From a virus (lineage: Duplodnaviria > Heunggongvirae > Uroviricota > Caudoviricetes), in the IMG/VR virus record IMGVR_UViG_3300037471_001733, positions 22,201 through 86,200 of that record: a stretch of 64,000 nucleotides of DNA; one strand, 5' to 3'. The translations under genes and the position numbers were made by a program. The notes beneath the pieces are model-generated. The model was not told the DNA's origin and searched no databases. It was given only the letters and a program-made list of their open reading frames with translations. The stretch's first letter is position 1. The number at the start of each line of letters is the position of its first letter. Below are positions 17,932 to 62,425 of the stretch, in pieces.

Positions 17932-17942
17932 GGCTCGACCTT

Positions 17943-18176: not shown

Positions 18177-18186
18177 GGTTCGCTCC

Positions 18187-18318: not shown

Positions 18319-18366
18319 CTCAACCCCTTGCCACTGATTACGCGCGGCGCCGTTTGGTATGTCTCT

Positions 18367-18395: not shown

Positions 18396-18419
18396 GCCCT
18401 TGCGCAAACTTTTTTCATG

Positions 18420-18660
18420 CGCCATGGCGGCGCGGCTGCACGTATATTGATAGTGCTGCGCCGCATAGGTGCGGCTTTGCTTTGCCTGCTCGCTTTTGCC
18501 TGCTGGTGCTGCAGCATGGGCACGAGTGCCTGCGCCATGGATGCGCCGCACTGGTCTGCGCGCCGTGCGCCGCCTCGTGCTGATCAGCTGCGCCGCCGGT
18601 CGAGCTGGTGCGCGACGTTGAGCGGCTGCCTCGTGCTGGCAATCGAGCGAGTGCGCGACC
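18420..18660 (+). repeat. non-coding GTGC(T/G)G-rich array (array R), related to array L
   Basis: About 9 GTGC on plus strand; shares exact words cctgctggtgctg (13 nt) and cgagtgcctgcg (12 nt) with 15.65-16.2 kb, same orientation. Confidence 0.55.
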
Positions 18661-18667
18661 TGGCGCA

Positions 18668-18764
18668 CCCCCTCTGATGGAAACACAGGCAACCCCCTGG
18701 AGTGGAAACACAGGCCAGGCGCACCCTCTCCACGGGAATTACGGAACCCCCTGAGATGGAAACA
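18668..18764 (+). repeat. four tandem iteron-like units CCCCCT-N4-TGGAAACA(CAGG)
   Basis: Copies at 18668-18685, 18693-18710, 18747-18764 plus degenerate 18723-18739 (CCCTCT-N4-GGGAATTA); 24-30 bp spacing; array ends 20 bp upstream of promoter copy B. Confidence 0.65.
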
Positions 18765-18784
18765 GGAATTCACAAATAAACTAC

Positions 18785-18813
18785 TTGCGTTCTGTAGTCG
18801 TTGCGCCTACATT
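18785..18813 (+). promoter_or_regulatory. candidate promoter with embedded operator (copy B, rightward)
   Basis: TTGCGT-tctgtagtcgttgcgcc-TACATT (17-nt spacer); nearly identical to copy A in inverted orientation. Confidence 0.55.
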
Positions 18814-18872
18814 GGACACATCGCAGCACTGCTGCAGCGGCGCCACCCGCGACGAGTGGCACTGGAGTTGAT

Positions 18873-19547
18873 ATGTTTGGAAAATACGGCAAGCGGATTA
18901 CCGATCCTGCGGAACTGCGCGAGTATCGTTTGAGCTATGTCCCGGCCGCGCTGCGCGACCAGTGCCAGCACGTGAAGTGCAAAACCGGCGATGCTGAGGC
19001 GTGGATCTGGAGCGACAAGGGCCGCGCCTACGCGGTGGGTTTCTCCGGTCGCGGCAAACACCCGTGGTCGCGCAATGGTGGCCAGGGAGCGGCCTACTAC
19101 TTCAAAACCCCGGAAGCGCGCCGCTCCTGGGTTGCGGAACTGTTTGCAGACGCCATGGCCGACGCAAAGCGCGCCGAGGAGCGCAAGGCGCAAAAGGCCG
19201 CAGCGCGTGCAAAGCCGCACGCCTTGCAGGTGGGAGATGTGTTGCGCTCCTCCTGGGGGTACGACCAAACCAATATCGACTATTACGAGGTCACGAAGCT
19301 TGTCGGCTCACAGATGGTCGAGGTTCGGCGCATTGCCTGCCAGTCTGAGGAAACCGCGCACATGCAAGGCGTGAGCGTTCCCGCCCCTGGCCACTACATC
19401 GGCGAGCCGAAGCGTTGCAAGGTCTCCGACTACGGCAACCGCGACTCGGTCAAGGTGTCCGAGGTGGCGCACGCCTACAAGATGACCCCGCGCATCGTCG
19501 GCGGCGTCAAGGTTTTCAACTCGTCTAGCTGGACGGCCTACGCCTGA
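18873..19547 (+). CDS. hypothetical protein (224 aa), type I associate with plasmid/ICE accessory regions (memory only)
   Basis: ATG 18873 with GGAG RBS; basic/Ala-rich linker then VGDVLRSSWGYDQTNIDYYEVTKLVG... beta domain. Confidence 0.55.
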   Translation: MFGKYGKRITDPAELREYRLSYVPAALRDQCQHVKCKTGDAEAWIWSDKGRAYAVGFSGRGKHPWSRNGGQGAAYYFKTPEARRSWVAELFADAMADAKRAEERKAQKAAARAKPHALQVGDVLRSSWGYDQTNIDYYEVTKLVGSQMVEVRRIACQSEETAHMQGVSVPAPGHYIGEPKRCKVSDYGNRDSVKVSEVAHAYKMTPRIVGGVKVFNSSSWTAYA

Positions 19548-19554
19548 TCAACCA

Positions 19555-19575
19555 GGGCCGCTCATGCGGCGGCCC
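19555..19575 (+). other. GC-rich stem-loop after the 224-aa gene (weak terminator/attenuator candidate)
   Basis: GGGCCGC(19555-19561)/GCGGCCC(19569-19575), no clear U-tract. Confidence 0.3.
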
Positions 19576-19605
19576 CCTTACGTGAATTTCACAGGAGCAC
19601 CGACC

Positions 19606-19908
19606 ATGGGCACCACGACCGGCCGACTCTTCCGCACGATCCGCAGCACGGGACGTGGAAGCGACTACTTCGGCACCTGCGACCAGTGCGGCAAGCACAT
19701 GAGCGAATGCCACGTGAGCCAAGTTCAGCGCGAATATCGGCGCGACGATGGCACCACGTACACCGGGCCCGTGACCGGCGGCGCCTATGGGCATCGTGAG
19801 TGCTTGGTCAAGCACTTCGGCGAACCCGTCCCAGCGGTGACGCGCGAATCCGTGCGAGTTTCGCCCTTTACTGATCCGGCGCGCTTCCCCAAAACGCTGC
19901 GCGCCTGA
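19606..19908 (+). CDS. hypothetical Cys/His-containing protein (100 aa)
   Basis: RBS cAGGAGcaccgaccATG; CDQCGKH...ECH...HREC possible zinc site. Confidence 0.5.
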   Translation: MGTTTGRLFRTIRSTGRGSDYFGTCDQCGKHMSECHVSQVQREYRRDDGTTYTGPVTGGAYGHRECLVKHFGEPVPAVTRESVRVSPFTDPARFPKTLRA

Positions 19909-19944
19909 CCCCTTCCGTAGATTGCACAGCAGGAGCACCACACC

Positions 19945-20340
19945 ATGGGAGCAGCAGCAGAACACCGGGGCAATGCCCTGATCCGCAGGCAGGCCGGCGC
20001 AGCGCATGCCGCGCGCCAAGCCATCGAGGACGCAGCGCGCGCCGCGCAGGTGGCCGAGGACTGCAACGAGTTTGCCCGCCAAGCGTGGGCGTATCTGCTC
20101 GACCCTTCCGGCCTGCGGCAACCCGCAGTGGAGCGCGCAAAGACTCGGCGCGGCTGGGCTAAGCGCCATGCGGAACTCAGTGCCGCGCATTGCGCATGGG
20201 TTGATGCGGACCATCGCAACGCCATGGCCTACCTTAGCGCCTGCATCCGCCGCGCGAAAGCCGCGCATGCGCTACTCACATTTGCGCTGGGCGGCTGGAC
20301 GATCCCGGATCACATTGAAGTGCCGCGCGCTGCGGCTTGA
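19945..20340 (+). CDS. hypothetical helical protein (131 aa)
   Basis: RBS cAGGAGcaccacaccATG; stop embedded in TGACCCCTTCC motif. Confidence 0.5.
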   Translation: MGAAAEHRGNALIRRQAGAAHAARQAIEDAARAAQVAEDCNEFARQAWAYLLDPSGLRQPAVERAKTRRGWAKRHAELSAAHCAWVDADHRNAMAYLSACIRRAKAAHALLTFALGGWTIPDHIEVPRAAA

Positions 20341-20349
20341 CCCCTTCCG

Positions 20350-20405
20350 GCGCACTCGCAAGGGTGCGCATTGCGATGCAGCCACGCGGAAGCATCGCAA
20401 TGCGC
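20350..20405 (+). promoter_or_regulatory. two mutually exclusive RNA hairpins (attenuator-like)
   Basis: GCGCAC(20350-55)/GTGCGC(20364-69) overlaps left arm of perfect 14-bp stem GCGCATTGCGATGC(20366-79)/GCATCGCAATGCGC(20392-405). Confidence 0.4.
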
Positions 20406-20453
20406 CAGCGCGCATAACGGCGCCGTCCCGGCTTGAGGCGGCAGGAGATTCAG

Positions 20454-22262
20454 ATGTCAGCACAAGACTTGATTGTTAGGATCAACGCAGCCGCCCAGGT
20501 GGCCCCGGAGCAACTGCCCAAAGGGGCGCAGCCGCGCGACCACATGATTGCCTTTGAGTACACCGACGCCCACGGCACGCGCGGCTGCATGCGCATCCTG
20601 AACACCCGGGCGCGGCTGCTGGCCTTCGCTGAGCAGGTGCGGAAGAACGCGGCAGCATTCGACGGCAAGCCGCGCAGCAAGCCCGCCGGGCCGCGCAAGA
20701 TTGCCGGCGCATCCCCGCTTTCCACGGCGCGCGCACTGCTCAAGGATGGCGCGCGGGTTGAAGCCCTCGCAGCGCTTGAGGCGCGCGGCGGGGAGGTGTT
20801 TTTCGGCGCCGCTGGCGTGCCTGTGCTGCATCAGGTTGCACAGCGCGTGGAGCACGAGGGCCGCCGCTGGGTTGTCACGCGCTGCGCCGTTGATGGTCTC
20901 ATCTACCTCATTCACGAGGCGTCCGGGCTGTCAGCAGGCGGCAAGGGCTTGCCTGAGATGCGCAGCATTGCGGATGCCCTGGCGCGGCTTGAGCTCGTGC
21001 ACCGGGACGAGGCGGAAAACGGCTACCGGCAGCGAATGATTGCTGCGATCGAGCAAGCGGCGGATTACGACCAGCAGGCGGCGCGCGCGGCTTTCGAGGC
21101 GTGCGATGGTCTCAAGAGCAAGGATGCCGCGCCGGTGGCTCAGGAAGCGTACCAGCAGGCGCGCGCGCTGTCGGCGGCGCAGGTGGCGCCCGATGTCGAG
21201 CCGGCAGTAGATGCAGACCCCTCCCCGGTGGAAAGCGAAGCCGAGGCGGCACCCCCTGTAGCGGAAACGCCTGCGGCAGCTGACACCCCTGCAGCGGAAA
21301 TCGAGTCCAGCGCGCCGGCGGTTGCGCCAGCATCCCCTCCGGCGGATTCACAGGCAGGCGCTGCACCCCCTGCGATGGAAAGCGCGCAGCCTGCGCCGCT
21401 TGCCACCGCGCCAGGCCGATCGGATGCGCTCATCGCGCGGGCCATCGCTTGGGTTGCCGTAGTCTGGGGAACCGCCAGCGTGCCGAGCGTTGCGGACTAC
21501 CGCGCCGGCCGGTGCGATGACACATTCCCGTGGGCGGGCGGCAGCCGCGCCGCCGGCTATCTGACATGGGCCGACCTCATTGGCGAGTGCATGGCCGCGC
21601 TGGAGCGCGACGACAGCGCCGACCAGGCGGCACGAGACGCCGCACTGCAACCACCGACCCCCATCCGTAGGAAAGGCCCGCGACAACATGAGCAGCACAC
21701 CCCATCCCGTGCAACCCGCAGTGCCAACCGGCCGCGAGTGGTGGACCCGCGGGCTGCTCGACTGGCACGCCGAGGCGCTGCACGCCGCCCAGGAGATCGC
21801 CGCGCTGCGCGAATCACTGGCTGCGGAGCGCGCAATGGTCCGCGAGCTGCAGGAGGCGCTCGCTGCCCGCCGGCAGGCCGCTTGACCCCTTCCCGGGGAA
21901 TCACGGCGCCACAAGCTTGCCGCCCCTGGCGCGACGCCAGCGAAACCCGAGACTGCACCCATAAAAACCTGGAGCACAGCATGACCTACACCGAAGCCAT
22001 CCAAGCCCTGCGCGACGCTATTGCGCAGGCCCCGAAGGGTGAAAAGCTGCAAGCCTTCCAAGCCAAGCGGGAGAAGATAATAGGGGCAATGCCCAAGGTG
22101 GAAATCTGTGGCGGCGAGCAGTGCATCCGCTATCCCAAGGGCTACCGCTTTGACTGCGGTCGCGAGGTCCACACGGACTGGATGTGGCAACCGTTTGCCA
22201 GCGAGGAAATCGCCATGCGGCCTGGCAACCTGCCGTACATCCTGCGCATGCCGGCTGCCTGA
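20454..22262 (+). CDS. long open frame; N-terminal ~400 codons look like a real two-domain protein with Pro/Ala/Glu repeat linker; 3' end probably composite
   Basis: AGGAG RBS before ATG 20454. No in-frame stop for 1.8 kb; frame turns Arg-rich (junk-like) from about 21660 to 21980, then is in frame with the 93-aa ORF. Confidence 0.4.
   Translation: MSAQDLIVRINAAAQVAPEQLPKGAQPRDHMIAFEYTDAHGTRGCMRILNTRARLLAFAEQVRKNAAAFDGKPRSKPAGPRKIAGASPLSTARALLKDGARVEALAALEARGGEVFFGAAGVPVLHQVAQRVEHEGRRWVVTRCAVDGLIYLIHEASGLSAGGKGLPEMRSIADALARLELVHRDEAENGYRQRMIAAIEQAADYDQQAARAAFEACDGLKSKDAAPVAQEAYQQARALSAAQVAPDVEPAVDADPSPVESEAEAAPPVAETPAAADTPAAEIESSAPAVAPASPPADSQAGAAPPAMESAQPAPLATAPGRSDALIARAIAWVAVVWGTASVPSVADYRAGRCDDTFPWAGGSRAAGYLTWADLIGECMAALERDDSADQAARDAALQPPTPIRRKGPRQHEQHTPSRATRSANRPRVVDPRAARLARRGAARRPGDRRAARITGCGARNGPRAAGGARCPPAGRLTPSRGITAPQACRPWRDASETRDCTHKNLEHSMTYTEAIQALRDAIAQAPKGEKLQAFQAKREKIIGAMPKVEICGGEQCIRYPKGYRFDCGREVHTDWMWQPFASEEIAMRPGNLPYILRMPAA
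21218..21382 (+). repeat. five copies of CCCC(C)T-N4-6-(T/C)GGA(A/T)(A/T) motif inside the linker-coding region
   Basis: Copies starting 21218, 21252, 21286, 21334 (degenerate), 21366; 32-48 bp spacing; encode PSPVESE/PPVAET/TPAAEIE/SPPADSQ/PPAMESA. Confidence 0.55.
21688..21885 (+). CDS. hypothetical coiled-coil protein (65 aa), nested in another frame of the long ORF
   Basis: AGGAAAGG RBS; protein-like sequence (REWWTRGLLDWHAEALHAAQEIAALRESLAAERAMVRELQEAL); stop in TGACCCCTTCC motif. Confidence 0.5.
   Translation: MSSTPHPVQPAVPTGREWWTRGLLDWHAEALHAAQEIAALRESLAAERAMVRELQEALAARRQAA
21981..22262 (+). CDS. hypothetical protein (93 aa)
   Basis: RBS ctGGAGcacagcATG; protein-like composition. 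Confidence 0.5.
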   Translation: MTYTEAIQALRDAIAQAPKGEKLQAFQAKREKIIGAMPKVEICGGEQCIRYPKGYRFDCGREVHTDWMWQPFASEEIAMRPGNLPYILRMPAA

Positions 22263-22404
22263 CGCATTGTCCGGTGGCGCAGCCTTTGGCGTTCAGCGCT
22301 ATTTGAACAAGGTGCGCGGTTTAGTTCAGGCGTACTTGAATAGCGCCCCCCCATGTAGTGAAAACAGGGCATCAACCCCATCCAGCGGATACAGGAGTCA
22401 AACC

Positions 22405-22695
22405 ATGGGAAGTATCAACCTCGGCCGCCACCACGTCGCCATCAGCGATCAATGGACGATCTACACCCCTGGCCTACCTGGCTGGCAGATGCTGGGCGTG
22501 ATCACCCGCAGCAAGGGTGGCGAGCAGATCACGAAGGCGCTGGCCCGCAGCCCGAAGGGCGAGCTCTGCGCGGTGCGTGGGCTGTCAGCCGAGCCGCTTG
22601 TCCAGCGAAAGGCTGAAGCGGCGCTGGCGGCTGCGATGCGCGAGGCCCATCCGGTGGAAACAGATGGCACCCATTCCGAGGGAAACAGGGCTTGA
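22405..22695 (+). CDS. hypothetical protein (96 aa)
   Basis: RBS acAGGAGtcaaaccATG. Confidence 0.5.
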   Translation: MGSINLGRHHVAISDQWTIYTPGLPGWQMLGVITRSKGGEQITKALARSPKGELCAVRGLSAEPLVQRKAEAALAAAMREAHPVETDGTHSEGNRA

Positions 22696-22719
22696 ATATG
22701 TAGGTTAAGCGCCTACACT
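22692..22719 (+). promoter_or_regulatory. candidate promoter with embedded operator (copy C), apparently leaderless for the 76-aa HTH gene
   Basis: TTGAAT-atgtaggttaagcgcc-TACACT (16-nt spacer), TGTAGG-N7-CCTACA palindrome in spacer; ATG 22726 lies 6 nt after the -10. Confidence 0.55.
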
Positions 22720-22725
22720 GGCATC

Positions 22726-22956
22726 ATGAGCACCTTACCGCCGCGCACGCCAGAGAACATCAAAGCCTTCCGCCAGCGTGCCGGCTGGACGCAGGAGAAG
22801 GCATGCGAGATGGCGTGCATCCACGACCGCCAAACCTGGCGTAAGTACGAAAACGGCACGCTCAAGATGAGCGAAGAGCGCTGGCGGCTGGCGCACTTTA
22901 TGGCCAACCTGCACCCCGACTTCGACGTTCGGCCGCGTACCAAGGCTGCGGCCTAG
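22726..22956 (+). CDS. XRE-family helix-turn-helix regulator (76 aa)
   Basis: IKAFRQRAGWTQEKACEMACIHDRQTWRKYENG...RWRLAHFMANLHPDF typical XRE/MqsA-like HTH pattern. Confidence 0.65.
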   Translation: MSTLPPRTPENIKAFRQRAGWTQEKACEMACIHDRQTWRKYENGTLKMSEERWRLAHFMANLHPDFDVRPRTKAAA

Positions 22957-22989
22957 CCTTCGCCCTCTGAGTACCGCCGGGAGGCGGCG

Positions 22990-23334
22990 TCAACCGTTTG
23001 GGTTCTGTGCCAGCCAAGCCCGGATCATCGCCTTGACCGCGGCGTGCAGGCCGTGTGGCGCGTAGACGCCACGCACTTCCTCGATACCTCTTTCCTTGAG
23101 CAGGGCCCTTCTTGCTCGATTCCTCTCTGTCGAGCTCTTCCCCGAAGGGGCTTTCGCGGTGGCGTTCATGAGCAGTTCCGTGCCATCGATTTTCTTCTCA
23201 GGCAAGGAGCAGGGGGCCAGTTCGCACTCTGCGGGAGCATTTGAGGGGGGCGGTTTGTTCTCGACCATTTGGCATTGACCCGTCGCGCGCGACGGTCCAT
23301 CATTCTTCGCTTTTCGACGATCAGAAGCCGCCAT
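22990..23334 (-). CDS. small basic DNA-binding-type regulator (start uncertain; 55-114 aa)
   Basis: C-terminus STERNRARRALLKERGIEEVRGVYAPHGLHAAVKAMIRAWL resembles small plasmid/phage basic-region regulators; alternative ATG at 23169. Confidence 0.45.
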   Translation of the reverse strand: MAASDRRKAKNDGPSRATGQCQMVENKPPPSNAPAECELAPCSLPEKKIDGTELLMNATAKAPSGKSSTERNRARRALLKERGIEEVRGVYAPHGLHAAVKAMIRAWLAQNPNG

Positions 23335-23568
23335 AAGTTGTGATGCGGCCGGAGTGCGCTAGTTGCAAGAACTATCAATTGGCATTCTCAAGGCGCAAGC
23401 GTGTCTTGCCAAGACTTTGTTGCACAGAGAGCGGCATGGATGCCGCTTTTGCGTTTGTGCAATCACCTCGAAAGGTTCCTGCCAGAGGATGCCGCCGATT
23501 GCCCACTATGGGGCAGGAACCAGTTCCACAATCGAAGCGCCACGCACTACGAAGAGTGGAGTTGCGCC

Positions 23569-24279
23569 ATGGACTGCGGCAAGAGAAGAACATGGGAGTG
23601 TGGCGTGACAACGAACTCTAAGAGGCTTTCTGGTAGACCATCTTTTAATTGGTCTATACCTGAGCCAGAAGAAGTTAAAGAAGTTAGATTGAAAGCCAAT
23701 TTGTCTCAGAGAGAAGCTTGTAATCTTTCTGGGATTAAAGAAGTAATGACTTGGAGTAATTGCGAAACTAGGAGAGCCGATGGCACTCCTAAGGCCCGCA
23801 TGGACCCAATTAGATGGGAATATTTCCTTCTAATAGTTGGACAACATTCCAAATTCGTTATTCTTCCGAGACTCGGGGTTGAACAGCCAAGAGAGGCGGC
23901 AGCTTTAACTAGGAAAGGTCCGTCTCTGCCTGGGGAGAACATTACTTTCGCAGTCGAGAGCCGAACTAGTGAAGACGAGTGGCGCTTGGTAGAAGGCGGA
24001 CAGTTCACAGCTCTGACTGCGGCATGTGTGGCCATAGACACGATGGTTGCCTGCAGGAACCTAAATGAACTAAGGGTGTCGCGTTACTCAGGTGGCGACT
24101 TCGTGATGGCAGTGCATGGGCCTGGTGTCTCTATGGACGAAGGCCCGAAGCGTTTTACCCATGCAAAGGCTGCGCCATCTCGAAGGACTGGGACTGACAG
24201 GAACGGAGCAGACCCAGGAGACCCAGATAATGATGGAAATGGAAGCAGAAATTCCAATGGTTTCGACCCTCAGGATTGA
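23569..24279 (+). CDS. low-GC HTH-fusion protein (236 aa): N-terminal XRE-type HTH, C-terminal ~130-aa unknown domain, acidic/Gly/Asn tail
   Basis: VKEVRLKANLSQREACNLSGIKEVMTWSNCE...PIRWEYFLLIVGQH HTH pattern; AT-rich codons (AGA, TTA, AAA) unlike rest of window. Confidence 0.6.
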   Translation: MDCGKRRTWECGVTTNSKRLSGRPSFNWSIPEPEEVKEVRLKANLSQREACNLSGIKEVMTWSNCETRRADGTPKARMDPIRWEYFLLIVGQHSKFVILPRLGVEQPREAAALTRKGPSLPGENITFAVESRTSEDEWRLVEGGQFTALTAACVAIDTMVACRNLNELRVSRYSGGDFVMAVHGPGVSMDEGPKRFTHAKAAPSRRTGTDRNGADPGDPDNDGNGSRNSNGFDPQD

Positions 24280-39967: not shown

Positions 39968-40302
39968 GCCTTCGCTCCTTCGTCATCGCCACACATGCGC
40001 AGCCAGTCAGCCATGGCAATGAACCGCGGCCCCCAATCGTCAGCCGGCAGGTCAGGCTCATGCTCGTCGTCGTGCCAGTAGATCCAGCCGCCGATGGCCG
40101 CCGACAGTTCACGCAGCCGCTGCAGCGACTCCTCAGGCACCACGTCTTGGCCGTAGCTGCGATCCGGCGCGGTCTCCGTCGCCATGGCCCACAGCGAGAA
40201 CTCGTTGCCCATGATCCATCCAGCGCAATAGCAGTCCTCGCTGATGTCGCTCATCAGCTCGTAGAGCTCGTTCTGCTGAGGGGTCAGGTTTTGCTCGCTC
40301 AT
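39964..40302 (-). CDS. hypothetical acidic protein (112 aa)
   Basis: ATGA overlaps both sides. Confidence 0.5.
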   Translation of the reverse strand: MSEQNLTPQQNELYELMSDISEDCYCAGWIMGNEFSLWAMATETAPDRSYGQDVVPEESLQRLRELSAAIGGWIYWHDDEHEPDLPADDWGPRFIAMADWLRMCGDDEGAKA

Positions 40303-40820
40303 GCCTTGGCTCCTTCAGCGGGCTCGTCTTTTCGGCGTTGGTCAGCTTCGCCAGCCAAGTGCAGGCCATGAATCGCTAGCGCCTCACGAATCCTGGCGAT
40401 GGATGTGGGTCCAATGCCGCCGAACCGGCGCCGAGTCAGGTCCGCAGGAGTGAGCCTCGTCAGGGCGCCAATCGTTCGCACGCCATTGCGGTCCAAGGAG
40501 CCGGTCACCCTGGGCGTGAGGCCATCAAGCGCGGCGGGCGAGAAGGCCAGGAAGCCGACGTCATCAGGGTGCGGGCCCTGCTCGTGGCGCGGCTCGATGA
40601 GCGGCGGACGGGCCGGAGACGGCGCAGGAGCGGGCTCGGGCGCCGGCACAGGGATCGTGAAGCTCACCGGCTTCAGGCGCACCTTCAGCATCTCGTCGGC
40701 CACCATGTACGACACGATGGCAACCTGCTCCGGGCTGATGTCGCCGCCGTAGGCGCCCAGCAGGGACTGCATGGCACCCTCAGCGAGCTTGTCGCGCAGC
40801 TTGGTCAATTGCTTGCTCAT
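40299..40820 (-). CDS. protein with C-terminal RNA polymerase alpha-CTD-like helix-hairpin-helix domain (173 aa)
   Basis: LTPRVTGSLDRNGVRTIGALTRLTPADLTRRRFGGIGPTSIARIREALAIHGLHL parallels RpoA CTD (LSVRSANCLK..I.YIGDL....E.LL...N.G.KSL.EI...L...GL.L). Confidence 0.55.
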   Translation of the reverse strand: MSKQLTKLRDKLAEGAMQSLLGAYGGDISPEQVAIVSYMVADEMLKVRLKPVSFTIPVPAPEPAPAPSPARPPLIEPRHEQGPHPDDVGFLAFSPAALDGLTPRVTGSLDRNGVRTIGALTRLTPADLTRRRFGGIGPTSIARIREALAIHGLHLAGEADQRRKDEPAEGAKA

Positions 40821-41599
40821 GCTCCAGCCCTCCGCGCAGTCGGCCGGTAACTCTCCCAAGGAAACGGCACCCAGCGACACGTCTCGGCCAGTCGATCAAA
40901 GGTGCGCTCACCAACGAACTGCTTGAAGCCCGCCGAGTTCTGGTTCGTGAGCAGGATGGTCGGCTTGACATCGCGGTAACGGCCGTCCAGCACGTCGAAG
41001 ACGATGTTCTGCTCGCTATCGGTGCCGTACTGCACGCCAACCTCGTCGATGACCAGCAGGTCCAGGTCCGTCAGGTAGCGCAGCACCTGCGTCTCGCTCT
41101 TCTCGCTGTCGCGCCGCCACGTCTCGCGGATCATGCGGATCAGGTCCATGCAGGTCACGTAGCGCACATCCGGCGAAAGCAGCGACTGCAGGACAGCGCC
41201 AGCGAGGTGGCTTTTGCCGGTGCCCGGCTTGCCGGCCAAGATCAGCCCGGAGCCCTTGCGCGAGTGCTCGGCAAAGTTCTCCGCGAAATCGCGCGTCACC
41301 GTCAGCGCATGGCGCTTCTCGTCGGTGTCGGCCACGAAGTTGTCGAACGTGCGGCCGATGAAGCGCGTCGGGATCATGGCGCTGGCCAGCATCCGGCTAT
41401 GGCGCTCTTCAGCGTCGCGGCGCTTTTGCTCAGCCTCGGCCGCGCGGTCCTCCTTGGCCTTGGCCTCTTCGCAGGCAGGACAGCGCGACCAGATGCGGCC
41501 GAAGATGTTGCGGCTCGTGTAGTCCCCGTGCTCGAGGCAAGAGGCTGCGCGCTCTTCCACCTGGCGCCTCACGGTGTCAGACAAGCGATCCATCGTCAT
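40817..41599 (-). CDS. DnaC/IstB-like AAA+ helicase-loader (260 aa)
   Basis: GLILAGKPGTGKSHLAGAV Walker A, DLLVIDEVG Walker B; follows replication initiator. Confidence 0.8.
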   Translation of the reverse strand: MTMDRLSDTVRRQVEERAASCLEHGDYTSRNIFGRIWSRCPACEEAKAKEDRAAEAEQKRRDAEERHSRMLASAMIPTRFIGRTFDNFVADTDEKRHALTVTRDFAENFAEHSRKGSGLILAGKPGTGKSHLAGAVLQSLLSPDVRYVTCMDLIRMIRETWRRDSEKSETQVLRYLTDLDLLVIDEVGVQYGTDSEQNIVFDVLDGRYRDVKPTILLTNQNSAGFKQFVGERTFDRLAETCRWVPFPWESYRPTARRAGA

Positions 41600-42632
41600 C
41601 CACGCCTTCGCGGTAGTCCTTGGAGTCAAAACCAGCGTGCTTGCTGGCACCTTGGCTGCCGGCGACCGGCAGTTCGTCCATCCAGCGCCCCTGGTTCAAC
41701 CAAGTAGACGGATGCGGGATGTACTTGCCGCCATCGCGCGTCCAGTCAGTGGACTGCTTCTGCACCTTGATGGCATTCAGCATCGTGGCCAGCAGCTCAA
41801 CTCCAACTTGGCGCTTTTCAAAGGCGCGACGTGCCGCGTCAATGCCGACCTTCCTCGGGTATGCGCTCCAGAAATCCTCGAATCGACCGTCACCCCCAGG
41901 GGGGTTAGGGGGGTATTGGTTCCCTTGACGGTTAATTGACGGTTCTCCGTACCGTTTTTGGGACTGCTTCTCGGGAAAAACGGTACCGCTTCCACGGAAA
42001 AACGGTACTGCTTCACCATCCTCCGAAGCTGTACCGTTTTTGGCATAGCTTCCCAGACGTCGAGTCCGCTCCGCGATTGTTGCCGCGCGCAACTTGCTGG
42101 GAGTGCCTTCGTTCTTGCACAGCGGGTCCAAGTCGTACTGGCGGAACAGCCTCATTTCTGCCGCGCTGGCCTCCTCCGGCGTTTCAAACACCTCCAACAC
42201 CTCGCGCACCAGCAGGCGGCCGGCAGCGATCTGCTCGCGCGGCCACTTGCCGCTTCCACGATAGGCGTCTGCCTCGGGGTCTCCGCAAAAAGAGCGCTTA
42301 CCCAGGTAGAAATTGCCCGTCTCCGGGTCTGTCACTCGGTACGTGTAGTGCGTGGCTGACGCCGTAGGCAGGCCAAGCAGCCGATAGACCGGGATGGAGC
42401 CGGTCACACCAACGCGCTTGCCCGTGTCCATAAGCAGACCGGCGTCTTGCAAGTTCTTGATGTTCTTGATGAGAGTCTTGCGGTCGCAGCAGGTGTCCTG
42501 CTCCAGCCGCAGGATGCTCGGGTAACAGAACCCGAACTCGTCGGCGTAGTTGGCAAGGCAGACCATCAAGAACTTTTCGCTGGACTTCGGCATGTCCAGC
42601 TTGAAGGCGTAGGCGAGGGCTGGGATGCTCAC
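41577..42632 (-). CDS. replication initiator/replisome organiser (wHTH N-domain, DnaD-like C-domain) with embedded GIY-YIG-like module
   Basis: GTGA overlap at 42632. KFLMVCLANYADEFGFCYPSILRL wHTH; YTYRVTDPETGNFYLGKRS...YRGSGK...EEASAAEMRLFRQY GIY-YIG-like; FEDFWSAYPRKVG...PSTWLNQGRWMDE C-domain. Confidence 0.7.
   Translation of the reverse strand: MSIPALAYAFKLDMPKSSEKFLMVCLANYADEFGFCYPSILRLEQDTCCDRKTLIKNIKNLQDAGLLMDTGKRVGVTGSIPVYRLLGLPTASATHYTYRVTDPETGNFYLGKRSFCGDPEADAYRGSGKWPREQIAAGRLLVREVLEVFETPEEASAAEMRLFRQYDLDPLCKNEGTPSKLRAATIAERTRRLGSYAKNGTASEDGEAVPFFRGSGTVFPEKQSQKRYGEPSINRQGNQYPPNPPGGDGRFEDFWSAYPRKVGIDAARRAFEKRQVGVELLATMLNAIKVQKQSTDWTRDGGKYIPHPSTWLNQGRWMDELPVAGSQGASKHAGFDSKDYREGVDDDGSLV
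41926..42045. repeat. iteron cluster inside the replication gene (candidate origin of replication)
   Basis: AAAAACGGTAC at 41976-86 and 41998-42008; inverted GTACCGTTTTT at 41949-59 and 42031-41; TTGACGGTT x2 at 41926-45; G-tracts at 41899-41913. Confidence 0.6.
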
Positions 42633-42895
42633 AGCGGACCTCCCCGCACGTTCCATTGCCGCGCAGCCTCTACTGCAGCCTCCATGGCGTCTTCCAGCAC
42701 CACATCGGGCCCGTGCGACTCGCACTGCCAGCACTCGACCTTGGCGTTGAATGCCAGGTCGCCGTTGTTGTCCGTGGTCGGGCTGACCTCAGCGCATGCG
42801 TTGCCGTCGTTGCAGAACGGGCACGGCTTCAGGCCGGCGTTGATTTTTTCCAGCTCAGCGTTGAACCGTTTGCTGTTGAAACGGGGGTTGCTCAT
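42629..42895 (-). CDS. lar: Lar-family restriction-alleviation protein (88 aa)
   Basis: LKPCPFCNDGN...VECWQCESHGP...EAAVEAARQWNVRG matches Lar-family pattern (CPFCG...C..C...eAi.aWNrR). Confidence 0.65.
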   Translation of the reverse strand: MSNPRFNSKRFNAELEKINAGLKPCPFCNDGNACAEVSPTTDNNGDLAFNAKVECWQCESHGPDVVLEDAMEAAVEAARQWNVRGGPL

Positions 42896-44286: not shown

Positions 44287-44652
44287 TTACACCGGCTCCG
44301 TTGCATCTGCGGGCACAGCAGATGCGCCTTGGCCATCAGTCCAAATCTCTTTCCCGTCGTCAGGATGCAAATGGAATCGCGTGACCTTGCCGCCGGTATT
44401 CCGCTCAATCAGTACAGACAATTTCGGGTTGCTGGGACTCAGCCCGTACATGACGTTGCGGAGGCGACCGAGGGAGACACCACAGCTGGCAGCGAACTCT
44501 TTCCTAGCTTTCGCGTTGGGCAAAGCTTTGACGAAGTCGTACAGCGGGGTGATGTACAGACTGCGGTCGCGTCCATTGACCTTCGTAGCGGTGTAGGTTC
44601 CGGTGCACATAACACCGAATCCTACACTGATGAATGCATACCTAGCAAACAC
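44287..44652 (-). CDS. Cro/YdaS-like HTH regulator (start uncertain: ATG 44652 or 44610)
   Basis: ARKEFAASCGVSLGRLRNVMYG...LSVLIERNTGGKVTRFHLHPDD matches YdaS/Cro-type pattern; first gene of the leftward early operon. Confidence 0.7.
   Translation of the reverse strand: MFARYAFISVGFGVMCTGTYTATKVNGRDRSLYITPLYDFVKALPNAKARKEFAASCGVSLGRLRNVMYGLSPSNPKLSVLIERNTGGKVTRFHLHPDDGKEIWTDGQGASAVPADATEPV
44593..44626. promoter_or_regulatory. 34-bp imperfect palindrome in the cro-like/cI-like divergent region (operator candidate)
   Basis: TGTAGGTTCCGGTG-cacataa-CACCGAATCCTACA; outer TGTAGG/CCTACA, inner CGGTG/CACCG; -10-like TACACT at 44623-28 (plus) and TAGGAT (minus). Confidence 0.55.
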
Positions 44653-54509: not shown

Positions 54510-54965
54510 ATGCCCACCACCATCATGAAACGCCTGGAGTTCGACGCCGGGCACCGCATCCCCAACCACGCCAGCAAGTGCCGCAACCTGCACGGCCACA
54601 GGTACGCGCTGGAAATCACGCTGGTGGGCGAGCCCATCGACGCCCCCGGCACCAGCAGCCACGGGATGCTGGAGGACTTCAGCGACGTGAAGCGCTTGGC
54701 GATGGAGCACCTCGTGGAGCCCTGGGACCACGCTTTCCTGGTGTACGAGGGCGACACGCAGGTGCTGGCGCTGCTGGCCGCGCTGCCCGGCCACAAGACC
54801 GTGGTGCTGCCGCGCGTGCCCACGGCCGAGAACCTCGTGGCGCTGGCCTTTGAAACGCTGGCGCCGATCTACACCGACCGCTTCGGCAACGGGCTGCGCC
54901 TGGAGCGCGTGCGCCTGTGGGAAACGCCGACGTGCTGGGCGGACTTCAGTTCCACAACCAACTGA
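54510..54965 (+). CDS. queD: 6-carboxy-5,6,7,8-tetrahydropterin synthase QueD
   Basis: LEFDAGHRIPNHASKCRNLHGHRY...WDHAFL...ENL pattern of PTPS/QueD. Confidence 0.8.
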   Translation: MPTTIMKRLEFDAGHRIPNHASKCRNLHGHRYALEITLVGEPIDAPGTSSHGMLEDFSDVKRLAMEHLVEPWDHAFLVYEGDTQVLALLAALPGHKTVVLPRVPTAENLVALAFETLAPIYTDRFGNGLRLERVRLWETPTCWADFSSTTN

Positions 54966-54973
54966 CGAGCACC

Positions 54974-56038
54974 ATGTTCAAAAACTTGACCTTGTTGCGC
55001 ATCAGCAGCGACTGGCTGCCCGATGCCATCGCTGCCGAGGACCAGCTGGCGCGCGAGCCCTTCACCGCCTGCGGTGCGACACAACCCGCGAGTGCTGGCT
55101 GGGTGCCGCCGCGAGGTGTGCCGCATGCGCCGCTGCTGGAGGTCATCGGCGGCCATTGGATTCTGTCGTTGATGTCAGAGCGCCGGCTGCTGCCCGGATC
55201 TGTCATCAAGGACCGCGTTGCCGAGATGACTGCCGAGTTCGAGAAGGCCAACGGCTACAAGGTCGGCAAGCGCCAGCGCAAGGAACTGGTGGCGCAGGCC
55301 GAGCAGGAGTTGCTGCCGAAGGCATTCACGAAACGCTCGCTGACCAAGGTGTGGCTCGACCCCCGCGCCCGCCTCCTAGCGGTCGACACCGGCAGCGCCA
55401 GCGCGGCCGAGTCTGTGGTTTCGATGCTGGTCAAGAGCCTGGACGGCTTTGGTGTGCAGCCTGTGACGACTTGGCTGGCGCCGGCCGGCGCGATGGCGGC
55501 TTGGATCAGCGAAGGCTGCGCGCCAAGCGGCTTCAGCCTGGACCGCGAGTGCGAGCTCAAGTCCACGGACGAGATGAAGAGCGTCGTCCGCTACGCCCGC
55601 CACTCGCTGGACAACGATGACGTGCGCCGCCACATCGCATCCGGCAAGCGCCCGACGCGCCTGGCGCTGTCCTGGGGCGACCGCGTGGCGTTCACCTTGA
55701 CCGATGGGCTTGTGCTCAAGCGCATCGAGTTTCTTGACGTCGCCATGGAAGGCCGCTCCGAAGTGGACGCGGCAGAGGCCTTTGACGCTGATGCTGCTAT
55801 CGCCTGCGGCGAGCTCAGCCGCCTGATACCGGATCTGCTGGCGGCGCTTGGTAACGAGGCTGAGCAGTCGCGCATCCACGAGGAAGAATCCAGCCCCAAG
55901 GCTGCGCTACAGGACCCCGCAGTGCCGAATTTGGACCACATCAGTACATCAGCGCTCTACTTGGCAGCGCAGGTGGAGCAGCAGATGGCTCCGATACGCG
56001 CGGCCCTGTCCGAGACTGCAGGAGCCGCCAAGGCATGA
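54974..56038 (+). CDS. rdgC: recombination-associated protein RdgC homolog (354 aa)
   Basis: MFKNLTLLRISSDWLP...AREPFTACGATQPASAGWVPP...ERRLLPGSVIKD typical RdgC N-terminus. Confidence 0.75.
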   Translation: MFKNLTLLRISSDWLPDAIAAEDQLAREPFTACGATQPASAGWVPPRGVPHAPLLEVIGGHWILSLMSERRLLPGSVIKDRVAEMTAEFEKANGYKVGKRQRKELVAQAEQELLPKAFTKRSLTKVWLDPRARLLAVDTGSASAAESVVSMLVKSLDGFGVQPVTTWLAPAGAMAAWISEGCAPSGFSLDRECELKSTDEMKSVVRYARHSLDNDDVRRHIASGKRPTRLALSWGDRVAFTLTDGLVLKRIEFLDVAMEGRSEVDAAEAFDADAAIACGELSRLIPDLLAALGNEAEQSRIHEEESSPKAALQDPAVPNLDHISTSALYLAAQVEQQMAPIRAALSETAGAAKA

Positions 56039-56616
56039 GCCTGCACATCGTCCCGATCACGCTTGAGCAGGCCAAGAGGTTCGTGCGCCGGCACCACCGC
56101 CACAACAAGCCGCCCACGGGCTGGAAGTTCGGCGTGGGCCTGTGCCACAGCGCCGGGCCGCTAGTGGGAGTGGCGACCGCTGGGCGCCCGGTGTCGCGCG
56201 AGATCCAGGAGCGCGAGCCGCTGACGCTGGAGGTCAACCGCACGTGCACGGACGGCACGCGCAACGCCAACTCGATGCTCTACGGCGCGATCTGGCGCGC
56301 GGCCAAGGCCCTGGGCTACACGCGCGCCATCACCTACATCCAAGGCAACGAGACGGGCGCCTCGCTCAAGGCTGCGGGCTGGGTGAAGGTGCGCGACCTA
56401 GATGCGCGCGGCTCCTGGAAGGAGTCGAGCAAGAAGTTGGCGCACCTGCGCGACGACGAGGGCACGGGCGGCGTGGCGCGGCAGCTGTGGGAAATCCGCG
56501 CTGCGACCGCCGGCCCAGTGGTGCTGCCCGACCTGGGCGCCGACGACGATCTGACAGACGACACAGAAGACCCCACGGGCGACTTGTTCGCCGAAGCTGA
56601 AGGAGAGCCCGCATGA
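56035..56616 (+). CDS. XF1762-family / GNAT-fold-like protein (193 aa) with acidic tail
   Basis: ATGA overlap; ITLEQAKRFVRRHHRHNKPP.GWKFGVG...LVGVATAGRPVSR...LEVNRTC...NANSMLYGA..RAAKALGY...TY....E.GASLKAAGW. Confidence 0.55.
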   Translation: MSLHIVPITLEQAKRFVRRHHRHNKPPTGWKFGVGLCHSAGPLVGVATAGRPVSREIQEREPLTLEVNRTCTDGTRNANSMLYGAIWRAAKALGYTRAITYIQGNETGASLKAAGWVKVRDLDARGSWKESSKKLAHLRDDEGTGGVARQLWEIRAATAGPVVLPDLGADDDLTDDTEDPTGDLFAEAEGEPA

Positions 56617-61424: not shown

Positions 61425-61738
61425 AGCTGCGTCAACTCAAGCGGAAGCACGTCGGGCGCCTGCGCCTGCGCATCGTCATGGCGCGCATGGCCGCGCTGAG
61501 GATCGAGTGGGACCGCGCCTTAGACGACATGGCCGGCGCGATGGCAAAGGCCATCCTTGGCTATGGCGAGGCGATCAAGCAGCGCCTGCTACTGGTCTTC
61601 AACAAGACCGGCGATCTCGTGGCCCACAGCGATACCGCTTGCCAACCGGACACGCCGATGACCATGGGCCTGATCCCCGCCAACACGCAAATCAAAGGCC
61701 ACATCGCCAGTGCGCCGCTGGAAATGCATGACCGATAG
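61406..61738 (+). CDS. hypothetical protein (about 105-110 aa; start ATG 61406 or TTG 61421)
   Basis: TTGA overlap option at 61421. Confidence 0.45.
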   Translation: MEVATLKLRQLKRKHVGRLRLRIVMARMAALRIEWDRALDDMAGAMAKAILGYGEAIKQRLLLVFNKTGDLVAHSDTACQPDTPMTMGLIPANTQIKGHIASAPLEMHDR

Positions 61739-62237
61739 CAACTTCCCCGACACCCCTACCCTGCGCGACGAGTTCGCTCTGCACGCCCCCATTGATTTCA
61801 ACGCGGCGCTGCGCCTATGGGGCGATGCGGACGCTGACTTGGTCAACGACGCGAACCGGGTCACGTTCATGATGCTCTGGGCGATGCACCGGTACGACTA
61901 CGCCGACGCCATGCTGGCTCAGCGCGACGAGCCACAGCGTGAGCCCGGGCAGCCGTTGCCATCCGGTGAGGACCGGCGCCTGGACCGCAAGCTGGTGACG
62001 CTCGACTTCTGGGACTACCGCGTCACGAAGCCTCTGGCCACCGCCGGCATCGAGACCCTGCGACAGCTGCTGGCGCTGGACATCTACCAGCTCGACGCCA
62101 TCAAGGGCATCGGGCCGGACGGGCTGCGCGACATCATCGACCGGCTCAACCGCGAGGGGCTGCGCCTGGCGCCAAAGGCAGCGCCAGCATTCGTGGACGA
62201 TGCGCCTGGGATCGGCGAAGAGACGATTGGGGGCTGA
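61728..62237 (+). CDS. protein with C-terminal RNA polymerase alpha-CTD-like helix-hairpin-helix domain (169 aa)
   Basis: YRVTKPLATAGIETLRQLLALDIYQLDAIKGIGPDGLRDIIDRLNREGLRL parallels the RpoA CTD pattern. Confidence 0.55.
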   Translation: MTDSNFPDTPTLRDEFALHAPIDFNAALRLWGDADADLVNDANRVTFMMLWAMHRYDYADAMLAQRDEPQREPGQPLPSGEDRRLDRKLVTLDFWDYRVTKPLATAGIETLRQLLALDIYQLDAIKGIGPDGLRDIIDRLNREGLRLAPKAAPAFVDDAPGIGEETIGG

Positions 62238-62239: not shown

Positions 62240-62425
62240 ATGTTCTGGAATGCACTTCTGCTAGTAGTGTTCTGCGTCGCGCTGCCGATTTTCGCTGGCA
62301 TGCTGAGAGAGGGAGCATCCCCGAAAGAGCTTGGCCAATTCGTGACCTCGCAATGGGGCATGACCATCTTCTTCCCGATTGGGATGGTCCTGTTCGTGAT
62401 TTGGCTGCTTGAGTACAGGCCTTGA
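62240..62425 (+). CDS. small membrane protein (61 aa, 2 TM)
   Basis: FWNALLLVVFCVALPIFAGML...MTIFFPIGMVLFVIWLL. Confidence 0.5.
   Translation: MFWNALLLVVFCVALPIFAGMLREGASPKELGQFVTSQWGMTIFFPIGMVLFVIWLLEYRP

What the first reader, a model, noticed from the sequence alone, without database searches (positions are those of the whole stretch)
40299..40820. Two separate proteins carry RNA polymerase alpha-CTD-like helix-hairpin-helix domains (second copy 61728-62237)
Both C-termini follow the RpoA CTD pattern:
- ...RVTGSLDRNGVRTIGALTRLTPADL...GIGPTSIARIREALAIHGLHL
- ...RVTKPLATAGIETLRQLLALDIYQLDAIKGIGPDGLRDIIDRLNREGLRL

They are attached to unrelated N-terminal regions, one in each of the two divergent early operons. 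Free alpha-CTD mimics could compete for UP elements or for activators that contact alpha-CTD, a possible host-transcription takeover or decoy mechanism. Two copies in one phage is notable.
Basis: partly seen in the sequence, partly recalled or inferred. Interest (0 to 1): 0.5.

Follow-up and report, generated by a model that had tools for sequence, protein, structure and literature searches.

The report
Two phage proteins with alpha-CTD-like domains
One phage-like element encodes two small proteins with the same layout, a short helical module common in phages joined by a floppy linker to a domain resembling the DNA-binding tail of bacterial RNA polymerase; their function is untested and they look more like DNA-tethered helper proteins than polymerase decoys.

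Summary
Both genes are real and lie at the stated coordinates: P1 at 40299-40820 (-), 173 aa, and P2 at 61728-62237 (+), 169 aa.

**Domain assignment.** Both C-termini are alpha-CTD-type helix-hairpin-helix domains.
- They score just under Pfam's PF03118 cut-off.
- RpoA is the only significant PDB sequence match, and NCBIfam gives only weak RpoA-model matches to this domain.
- A profile built from 143 alpha-CTD-like segments finds exactly these two ORFs in the six-frame window.
- The P1 model superposes on solved alpha-CTDs at 1.2-1.5 Å. The P2 model was too poor to test.

**N-termini.** Both carry the same short helical module (LRDxFA…ADxMLxxR), which matches the C-terminal part of phrog_2201. 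This module is common as a standalone hypothetical protein in phage early regions. A metagenomic protein (P0088) has the same two modules in swapped order, so the pairing recurs.

**Decoy idea.** It is untested and has some evidence against it.
- About 25-40% identity to RpoA CTDs in the alignments obtained.
- R265 and G296 are kept, but N268, K298 and the 261 determinant are not.
- The closest relatives are non-RpoA proteins.
- P1 is translationally coupled to the replication initiator and helicase-loader genes.

**Prior knowledge.** Phage proteins with alpha-CTD domains are already auto-annotated in public databases, but I found none characterised.

**Verdict.** A new variant of a known, uncharacterised kind, of moderate interest.

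The parts
40299..40820 (-). P1 gene (173 aa, P0007): helical module + Pro-rich linker + alpha-CTD-like domain. Its ATG overlaps the stop of the DnaC-like gene (ATGA), and its stop overlaps the next gene's ATG (ATGA).
   Evidence: GC3 0.79
40671..40820 (-). P1 N-terminal helical module (residues 1-50), short variant of the LRDxFA...ADxMLxxR module; predicted helical hairpin H3-24/H30-48
   Evidence: phrog_2201 E 3.3e-4 and phrog_20565 E 2.6e-4; tblastn to Tunturi_1 gp71; BLASTP to the P0088 C-terminus, 44% over 41 aa, E 1e-5; model pLDDT about 80
40533..40670 (-). P1 proline-rich linker (residues 51-96), predicted disordered
   Evidence: pLDDT 44-53 and no secondary structure; sequence
40341..40532 (-). 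P1 alpha-CTD-like (HhH)2 domain (residues 97-160)
   Evidence: PF03118 18.6 bits; 1doq E 0.009; 83 hits to other proteins, all through this domain; the 10 scanned score on PF03118, 7 of them with 2-6 tandem copies; Foldseek to alpha-CTD structures rmsd 1.2-1.5 Å over about 66 residues, TM 0.77-0.84
61728..62237 (+). P2 gene (169 aa, P0001), same three-part layout; 5 homologues at 55-70% identity in metagenomes
   Evidence: GC3 0.86
61749..61931 (+). P2 N-terminal helical module (residues 8-68), long variant of the same module
   Evidence: phrog_2201 E 3.1e-5; tblastn to Klebsiella phage ZCKp20p UXQ88456, E 3e-7; HMM built from standalone homologues only scores 84 bits
61932..61991 (+). P2 Pro/Glu/Arg-rich linker (residues 69-88)
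   Evidence: pLDDT below 50; alignment
61992..62171 (+). P2 alpha-CTD-like domain (residues 89-148); the most conserved part of the family (82% mean pairwise identity, versus 54% for the N-module)
   Evidence: PF03118 21.5 bits; Thermus RpoA E 1.2e-6; family profile against 1doq E 2.2e-5; independent alpha-CTD profile 35.6 bits, E 4e-10; per-domain identity
40817..41650 (-). Context: DnaC/IstB-like helicase-loader ATPase immediately upstream of P1
   Evidence: PF01695 E 8.6e-17
41577..42734 (-). Context: replication initiation protein (HTH_36; phrog_270)
41949..42041 (.). Candidate origin. Four exact GTACCGTTTTT copies, each with an A5/T5 tract, form the densest A-tract cluster in the window. 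Only by inference a possible target for P1.
   Evidence: (4 found against 0.21 expected)

Best explanation
P1 and P2 are distant paralogues, or parallel fusions, of one two-module architecture. A short helical module of the phrog_2201 type is joined by a disordered Pro-rich linker to an alpha-CTD-type helix-hairpin-helix domain.

The most likely working model is a DNA-tethered early accessory protein.
- The alpha-CTD-like domain contacts DNA. By analogy with RpoA it would use the conserved Arg equivalent to R265 and the GIG hairpin in a narrow, A/T-rich minor groove.
- The helical module dimerises or binds a phage or host partner.
- The long linker gives reach, the same logic as the RpoA NTD-linker-CTD arrangement.

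P1, translationally coupled to the initiator and helicase-loader genes, probably acts in or near phage replication. P2, at the end of the rightward early array, would do the same job at another site or time.

What is shown: the domain identities, the shared architecture, its recurrence elsewhere, and the gene context. What is inferred: DNA binding, dimerisation or partner binding, and any link to the origin.
For: Alpha-CTD assignment:
-.
- R265 and G296 equivalents are kept in P1 and all but one of the aligned P2-family members (P0004's R265 segment was trimmed).
- The P1 domain is strongly basic (9 Arg against 3 acidic residues; read from the sequence).

Same N-module in both proteins:
- phrog_2201 positions 165-217 are hit by both.
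- Standalone small phage proteins of both the long and short variants hit the same positions at E 1e-7 to 1e-13.
- The proteins align collinearly.

The pairing recurs:
- P0088 carries the alpha-CTD at its N-terminus and the module at its C-terminus. It matches P1 in both parts, E 8e-10 and 1e-5.

The domain is under the strongest constraint:
- 82% identity in the CTD against 54% in the N-module and 37% in the tail.

Context:
- ATGA overlaps link the DnaC-like gene, P1 and the next gene.
- The initiator is confirmed.
- Other small proteins ending in an alpha-CTD-like domain lie next to DnaB, the beta-clamp and methylases (P0023) or in a prophage early region (P0085).
Against: - There is no experimental or direct computational evidence of DNA binding.
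- N268 and K298 of the RpoA DNA-binding determinant are replaced (G/K and T/D). In the P2 family the K298 position is an invariant Asp and the domain is about neutral, which argues against the canonical UP-element binding mode for P2.
- The P2 structure model is unreliable (pLDDT 53) and its fold search gave nothing significant.
- The N-module has no known function and no solved relative.
- P1's N-module assignment rests on weak scores (E about 3e-4; 4.6 bits against the standalone-only HMM).
- Gene position next to replication genes is weak evidence. In lambdoid phages that position also holds unrelated accessory genes (my own knowledge).
Confidence: 0.45

Rival explanations
1. Decoy. The alpha-CTD-like domains mimic the host RpoA CTD. 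They titrate UP elements or activators that contact the alpha-CTD, shutting down or redirecting host transcription.
For: - The fold and sequence are specifically alpha-CTD-like.
- The genes lie among early-type genes.
- The R265 equivalent is conserved.
Against: - Only about 25-40% identity to RpoA CTDs in the alignments obtained.
- The nearest relatives are non-RpoA proteins with alpha-CTD-like domains, several with tandem copies, so this is not a recent capture of host rpoA.
- The E. coli 261 determinant (D259/E261) and most 287-determinant positions are not kept, nor are N268/K298.
- A simple decoy would not need a conserved second module, yet the pairing recurs even in swapped order.
- The host and its RpoA are unknown, so surface mimicry could not be assessed.
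Confidence: 0.12
2. Alpha-CTD supplied in trans. The helical module docks on host RNA polymerase or on a phage transcription factor. The tethered alpha-CTD-like domain gives an extra promoter-upstream DNA contact, activating phage promoters.
For: - The module-linker-CTD layout parallels the RpoA NTD-linker-CTD arrangement.
- phrog_30599, annotated 'transcriptional regulator', weakly matches the module (E 0.021 for P2; 3.8e-6 for P0088 and 1.6e-5 for Tunturi gp71).
Against: - There is no evidence that the module binds RNAP.
- The phrog_30599 name is an untested annotation.
- No sigma-70-like promoters were found near either gene, so no targets can be named.
Confidence: 0.2
3. Protein-protein adaptor. 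The alpha-CTD-like domain, especially in P2, is used as a protein-binding surface rather than for DNA binding. It would recruit a host or phage factor to whatever the helical module binds.
For: - P2's domain is near neutral, with an invariant Asp at the K298 position.
- It is nonetheless the most conserved part of the protein.
- RpoA's alpha-CTD is itself a hub for protein contacts: the PDB hits include complexes with Spx, CAP and sigma region 4.
Against: - No partner is identifiable.
- HhH hairpins bind DNA largely through main-chain atoms (established knowledge), so the loss of K298 does not exclude DNA binding.
Confidence: 0.15
4. The similarity is chance, or only generic HhH, with no alpha-CTD relationship.
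For: - Both PF03118 scores are below the gathering cut-off.
- For P2, HHH_5 scores slightly higher (23.7 against 21.5 bits).
- The P2 fold search was uninformative.
Against: - Only RpoA is significant in PDB, and only weak RpoA-model hits cover this domain in NCBIfam.
- The independent profile hit for P2 has E 4e-10, and the same profile scores E. coli and Thermus alpha-CTDs at 73.5 and 63 bits.
- The relatives of P1's domain that were scanned score on PF03118, up to E 8e-67.
- The P1 model matches alpha-CTD structures at 1.2-1.5 Å.
Confidence: 0.04

Closest known systems
C-terminal domain of the bacterial RNA polymerase alpha subunit (RpoA alpha-CTD; Pfam PF03118; e.g. PDB 1doq, 1lb2, 3k4g, 9zum)
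   Same: - About 60-residue domain built from two helix-hairpin-helix units.
- Arg equivalent to R265 and Gly equivalent to G296 are kept.
- The domain sits at the C-terminus after a long flexible linker.
- The P1 model superposes at 1.2-1.5 Å.
   Different: - No alpha N-terminal (RNAP assembly) domain.
- About 25-40% identity in the alignments obtained.
- N268, K298 and the 261 determinant are not conserved.
- P1 has a 2-residue insertion before the second hairpin.
- Scores fall below the Pfam cut-off.
[quoted passage not shown]
   Same: - Small phage proteins ending in a single alpha-CTD-like domain.
- The two best BFVD hits align along the whole P1 model.
- Similar small proteins lie in phage early or replication regions.
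   Different: - Those are annotation-level only; I found no functional study.
- Whether they carry the same N-module could not be checked, because their sequences were not retrievable here.
- Many bacterial relatives have 2-15 matched stretches (tandem copies) instead of one.
phrog_2201-type small phage proteins (e.g. Klebsiella phage ZCKp20p UXQ88456, Tunturiibacter phage Tunturi_1 gp71, hypothetical proteins of Pseudomonas phage PAJU2 and Sf101)
   Same: They share the LRDxFA...ADxMLxxR helical module with the N-termini of P1 and P2, and occur in early or accessory gene regions.
   Different: They are standalone (61-134 aa) or joined to other sequence, and have no alpha-CTD. All are annotated hypothetical.
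Metagenomic protein P0088 (141 aa)
   Same: It has the same two modules as P1: alpha-CTD 39% identical (E 8e-10) and helical module 44% identical (E 1e-5). It has a precomputed PF03118 hit.
   Different: The module order is swapped (alpha-CTD first) and the linker is short. It is known only from a 1.3 kb contig.

Membership tests
Pfam PF03118 RNA_pol_A_CTD | Whole-protein score at or above the curated gathering cut-off (23.8 bits) | tested here: not met
   P1 scores 18.6 bits and P2 21.5 bits. Both are close to the cut-off but under it.
Pfam PF03118 RNA_pol_A_CTD | Specific sequence relationship to alpha-CTDs rather than to other HhH families | tested here: met
   - Only RpoA is significant in PDB; NCBIfam gives only weak RpoA-model hits to this domain.
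- P1's relatives that were scanned score on PF03118.
- A profile of those relatives hits P2 at E 4e-10 and true alpha-CTDs at 63-73 bits.
Pfam PF03118 RNA_pol_A_CTD | Alpha-CTD fold (compact helical domain with two HhH units) | tested here: inconclusive
   - P1 is met on a predicted model: CTD pLDDT about 80; rmsd 1.2-1.5 Å and TM 0.77-0.84 to 1lb2, 3n97, 1z3e and 9zum.
- P2 could not be judged: model pLDDT 53 and no significant match.
RpoA alpha-CTD function (UP-element binding) | 265 determinant: R265, N268, C269, G296, K298, S299 (E. coli numbering; established knowledge) | tested here: not met
   R265 and G296 are kept in both. N268 becomes G (P1) or K (P2). C269 becomes S or P. K298 becomes T or D. 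S299 becomes S or G. The determinant is only partly retained.
RpoA alpha-CTD function (contacts with sigma and activators) | 261 determinant (D259, E261) and 287 determinant (E. coli numbering; established knowledge) | tested here: not met
   Read off the sequences around the alignment. E261 becomes G (P1) or F/W (P2). V287/E288 become A/D (P1) or Y/Q (P2). The host RpoA is unknown, so the comparison is with E. coli only.
RpoA (RNA polymerase alpha subunit) | N-terminal dimerisation and RNAP-assembly domain | tested here: not met
   There are no alpha-NTD Pfam hits. NCBIfam rpoA models match only the last 50-70 residues or so.
RpoA alpha-CTD function | Binding to A/T-rich minor-groove DNA | not testable with these tools
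   Needs gel-shift or footprinting experiments.
phrog_2201 C-terminal module (LRDxFA...ADxMLxxR) | Profile match to positions about 156-217 of phrog_2201 | tested here: met
   - P1 E 3.3e-4 and P2 E 3.1e-5, at positions 165-215 and 165-217.
- Standalone homologues and P0088 hit the same positions at 1e-7 to 1e-13.
- P1's match is weak; it is backed by BLASTP to P0088 at E 1e-5.
Pfam PF14520 HHH_5 (generic HhH) | Score at or above 27 bits | tested here: not met
   15.1 and 23.7 bits. In P2 it covers only the second half of the domain.
Known anti-phage defence proteins (PADLOC) | Match to any PADLOC model | tested here: not met
   No hit at E up to 1.

The most novel reading that the evidence does not exclude
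The phrog_2201 helical module plus alpha-CTD-like domain defines an undescribed class of phage early factors that interfere with or extend the host RNA polymerase's own alpha-CTD function.

They could act as decoys for UP elements or activators. Alternatively they could be a trans-supplied extra alpha-CTD docked on RNAP or on the replisome through the helical module. One phage would deploy two diverged copies for different targets.
Probability: 0.15. Interest if true: 0.75.

Novelty: new variant of a known kind. Interest (0 to 1): 0.4.

Why it matters
The alpha-CTD is the part of bacterial RNA polymerase that reads upstream promoter DNA and receives most activators. In the library searched I found no study of a phage protein that copies this domain. 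In the examples I know from the literature, phages modify or bind RNAP rather than copy this domain.

This work shows that such domains recur in phage early regions. They are repeatedly fused, in either order, to a very common but uncharacterised phage module.

That gives a concrete handle on two things. One is the function of a widespread 'hypothetical' phage module. The other is whether phages use alpha-CTD copies to steer transcription or replication.

If the proteins turn out to be plain DNA-binding accessories, the result is ordinary but still assigns a domain to proteins currently listed with no Pfam hit.

Tried and rejected
- **Nucleotide search against phages.** Megablast of both neighbourhoods found no close relative of the element, only short unrelated hits.
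- **Homologue searches.** P1 has no full-length homologue, either in the word-indexed search or in the exhaustive HMMER search of 1.84 billion representatives. All 83 hits to other proteins go through the C-terminal domain.
- **Profile comparison of the two families.** hhalign of the P2 family against P1 aligned only the C-terminal domain (E 6e-4). The N-terminal relationship had to be established through phrog_2201 and third-party proteins.
- **P2 structure.** The prediction was low confidence (pLDDT 53) and its Foldseek search gave nothing significant. I do not use it.
- **Genome collection.** The scan for the P2 family found nothing, so no host could be assigned. IMG/VR returned only the already known relative.
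- **Solved structures for the N-module.** None found.
- **Defence-system models.** PADLOC gave no hits.
- **Promoter and terminator scans.** Neither gene's surroundings exceeded the shuffled expectation, so operon boundaries remain unknown.
- **Literature.** Searches for phage alpha-CTD-like proteins returned only genome-annotation mentions.
- **Long PDB alignment of P2.** The alignment to Thermus RpoA residues 195-313 extends into the linker and N-module. I treat only its C-terminal 60 or so residues as meaningful.
- **Consensus tblastn.** The alpha-CTD consensus against phage genomes found only 14 records, many of them unannotated fragments that may be host rpoA. It is not usable as a frequency estimate.

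Full report
**1. The observation**

- The first spans 40299-40880 on the minus strand (GC3 0.79).
- The second spans 61710-62237 on the plus strand (GC3 0.86).

The likely starts are the ATGs at 40820 and 61728.
- They match the public gene calls P0007 (173 aa) and P0001 (169 aa).
- For P2 they also match the N-termini of five homologues.
- The P1 ATG overlaps the stop of the upstream gene as ATGA and is preceded by GGAGG. The P1 stop overlaps the next gene's ATG in the same way.
- P2 overlaps its upstream gene by 11 nt. A 61-aa hydrophobic ORF follows it 2 nt later.

The quoted peptides are present.

**2. Is the C-terminal domain alpha-CTD-like?**

Single-sequence Pfam scores fall just under the PF03118 cut-off of 23.8 bits: 18.6 bits for P1 and 21.5 for P2.
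- The PF03118 model covers the whole domain. HHH_5 scores 15.1 and 23.7 bits and, in P2, covers only the second half of the domain.
- In the PDB sequence search every significant hit is an RNA polymerase alpha subunit. P2 reaches E 1.2e-6 and P1 E 0.009, against Thermus alpha-CTD 1doq and the holoenzyme entries.
- The P2 family profile gives E 2.2e-5.
- NCBIfam returns only weak RpoA-model matches to the last 50-70 residues or so.

An exhaustive HMMER search with P1 found 83 hits to other proteins, all through residues about 100-160.
- Most of these proteins match in two or more stretches.
- All ten that I scanned score on PF03118, seven of them with 2-6 tandem copies, at E down to 8e-67.

I built a profile from 143 such segments.
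- It scores E. coli alpha-CTD at 73.5 bits and Thermus alpha-CTD at 63 bits.
- Among the 962 six-frame ORFs of the window it hits only P1 and P2.
- P1 scores 86.9 bits, which is circular because P1 seeded the profile. P2 scores 35.6 bits, E 4e-10, which is independent. The next hit has E 0.08.

So there are exactly two copies in these 64 kb.

The AlphaFold model of P1 has a mean pLDDT of 69, and about 80 in both folded parts.
- All 50 top Foldseek PDB matches are RpoA.
- Isolated alpha-CTD chains (1lb2, 3n97, 1z3e, 9zum, 3k4g) superpose at rmsd 1.2-1.5 Å over about 66 residues, with TM 0.77-0.84.

The P2 model is poor (pLDDT 53) and its fold search is uninformative. For P2 the assignment therefore rests on sequence alone.

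**3. The N-termini are not unrelated**

Both N-termini hit the same stretch of phrog_2201, positions 165-217 of 226. P1 scores E 3.3e-4 and P2 E 3.1e-5.

tblastn against phage genomes found standalone small proteins carrying the same motif, LRDxFA...(A/Y)xxADxMLxxR.
- Klebsiella phage ZCKp20p UXQ88456 lies between a RecE-like exonuclease gene and an AAA ATPase gene. It matches P2 at E 3e-7.
- Tunturiibacter phage Tunturi_1 gp71 matches P1 at E 9e-3.

These proteins, plus 18 further metagenomic homologues of 61-114 aa, are unnamed and have no Pfam domain.
- Those rescanned hit phrog_2201 at 1e-7 to 1e-13 in the same positions, for both the long (P2-like) and short (P1-like) variants.
- The short variant also occurs in cultured Pseudomonas, Burkholderia, Klebsiella and Shigella phages, always as 'hypothetical protein'.
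- A global alignment of P1 with the P2 family is collinear: module, Pro-rich linker, domain.

There is a caveat for P1. hhalign did not align the N-termini, and a profile built from standalone homologues alone scores P1 at only 4.6 bits.

The strongest support for P1 is P0088, a 141-aa metagenomic protein.
- It has the alpha-CTD at the N-terminus and the module at the C-terminus.
- It matches P1 in both parts: 39% identity at E 8e-10, and 44% identity over 41 aa at E 1e-5.
- It carries a precomputed PF03118 hit.

The same two modules are therefore found fused at least three times, in both orders.

**4. Context**

The window has three gene blocks.
- Minus-strand genes run from 1 to about 44.6 kb. 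These include the structural genes and terminase, then a long early block.
- Plus-strand genes run from 45.3 to 62.4 kb.
- Minus-strand genes resume from 62.5 kb.

Leftward from the divergence point lie, in order:
- a repressor-like or YdaS-like gene (44287-44652);
- several unknown genes;
- a replication initiation protein (41577-42734; HTH_36, phrog_270);
- a DnaC/IstB-like ATPase (40817-41650);
- P1;
- two unknown genes.

P2 is the second-to-last gene of the rightward array, which also holds RdgC and a Mom-like protein.

A P2 homologue lies on a 119.5 kb contig that also carries ParA, ParB and a relaxase-domain gene. The window's own contig is 120,045 bp. The terminase is closest to those of Ralstonia and Halomonas phages, at 64-66% identity. 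No genome in the species collection carries the P2 family.

Other small proteins that end in an alpha-CTD-like domain also lie in phage replication or early regions.
- P0023 sits beside DnaB, methylases and a beta-clamp gene.
- P0085 sits downstream of integrase, Cro-like and Bro-N genes.
- P0080 sits beside an HTH repressor gene.

**5. How it probably works**

Several things are shown.
- There are two folded parts joined by a linker of roughly 20-45 residues predicted to be disordered.
- The Arg equivalent to R265 and the Gly equivalent to G296 are kept in both proteins.
- N268 becomes G or K, K298 becomes T or D, and S299 becomes S or G. The 261 determinant is lost.
- Within the P2 family the alpha-CTD-like domain is the most conserved part: 82% mean pairwise identity, against 54% for the module and 37% for the tail.
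- P1's domain is strongly basic. P2's is near neutral, with an invariant Asp at the K298 position.

From this I infer that the domain tethers the protein to DNA, and that the helical module dimerises or binds a partner. This is the same design logic as RpoA's NTD-linker-CTD. For P2 a protein-binding role for the domain is a serious alternative.

P1's coupling to the initiator and loader genes suggests a role near replication.

A candidate target exists, but only by inference. Four exact copies of GTACCGTTTTT lie at 41949-42041 inside the initiator gene and nowhere else in the window. The chance expectation is 0.21 copies. Each copy holds an A5/T5 tract. Together they hold 4 of only 35 such tracts in 64 kb, the tightest group I saw in the list.

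**6. The decoy hypothesis**

It is not excluded, but several points weigh against it.
- The domains share about 25-40% identity with RpoA CTDs in the alignments obtained, and group with non-RpoA relatives.
- The E. coli contact determinants for sigma and CAP are not kept.
- The domain is always joined to a second conserved module, which a simple competitor would not need.

The host RpoA is unknown, so true surface mimicry could not be assessed.

**7. What is known already**

Phage proteins with an alpha-CTD domain are already auto-annotated.
- UniProt A0A6J5QDR9, A0A6J5MNY7 and A0A6J5L490 come from uncultured Caudovirales.
- A0A2P1JY10 comes from Rhodococcus phage Finch.
- Bacillus phage Goe8 has a gene annotated 'RNA polymerase subunit alpha'.
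- Erythrobacter phage vB_EliS-L02 ORF40 is annotated this way (PMC9127768).

I found no functional study in the searchable library.

P1 and P2 themselves carry no Pfam annotation in the public collection. As far as I could determine, the recurrent fusion with the phrog_2201 module is not described.

**8. Verdict**

- One descriptive claim, the unrelated N-termini, is wrong, and correcting it is the most informative result here.
- The proposed decoy mechanism is unsupported but testable.
- I classify this as a new variant of a known, uncharacterised kind, with interest 0.4.

Noticed in passing
window 41949-42041: Four exact copies of GTACCGTTTTT, arranged + - - +, lie within 93 bp inside the replication-initiator gene and nowhere else in the window (0.21 expected by chance). 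There is a local GC dip to about 55%. This looks like an iteron-type origin embedded in the initiator gene.
   Followed up: partly
window 42111-42353 (residues 128-208 of the initiator ORF 41577-42734, minus strand): The middle of the replication initiation protein matches a homing-endonuclease family (phrog_314, E 1.9e-7). Its peptide YTYRV...GNFYLGKRS looks GIY-YIG-like. It sits between the HTH_36 N-domain and the C-terminal initiator domain, just upstream of the repeat cluster.
   Followed up: no
L001 15920-20180 (relative on a 119.5 kb contig): The related element that carries a P2 homologue also encodes ParA, ParB/KorB and a relaxase-domain protein. The window's own contig is 120 kb. This suggests a large phage-plasmid-like element rather than a typical 40-60 kb temperate phage. 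IMG/VR lists only 73 kb of that contig as viral.
   Followed up: no
L013 479-904 (protein P0088): A 141-aa metagenomic protein has the same two modules as P1 in reversed order: the alpha-CTD first and the LRDYFA...ADAMLKAR module last.
   Followed up: partly
window 54917-56616: RdgC (PF04381, E 2e-97) is followed by a Mom-like protein (PF25680, E 6e-5) in the rightward array. A Mom-like gene also lies near a standalone N-module gene in L008.
   Followed up: no
window 62240-62425: A 61-aa strongly hydrophobic ORF (MFWNALLLVVFCVALPIFAG...) starts 2 nt after the P2 stop. A 61-aa gene is in the same position in L005. It may be a small membrane protein co-expressed with P2.
   Followed up: no
window 62556-62957 and L001 12698-13432: A DUF551 protein lies convergent to P2. 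A DUF551 protein also lies on the opposite strand about 2 kb downstream of the homologue in the 119.5 kb relative, so local synteny is partly conserved.
   Followed up: no
window about 14000-24000: Few ORFs pass the high-GC3 coding filter in this stretch, compared with the dense arrays on either side. It may be a differently composed, possibly acquired, block or a region of unusual genes.
   Followed up: no
proteins P0008, P0009, P0010 and P0056: Large proteins of 796-2440 aa match the alpha-CTD-like domain in 6-15 separate stretches. One (P0008) also has a HIT-domain match. I do not know of a described function for such arrays.
   Followed up: no
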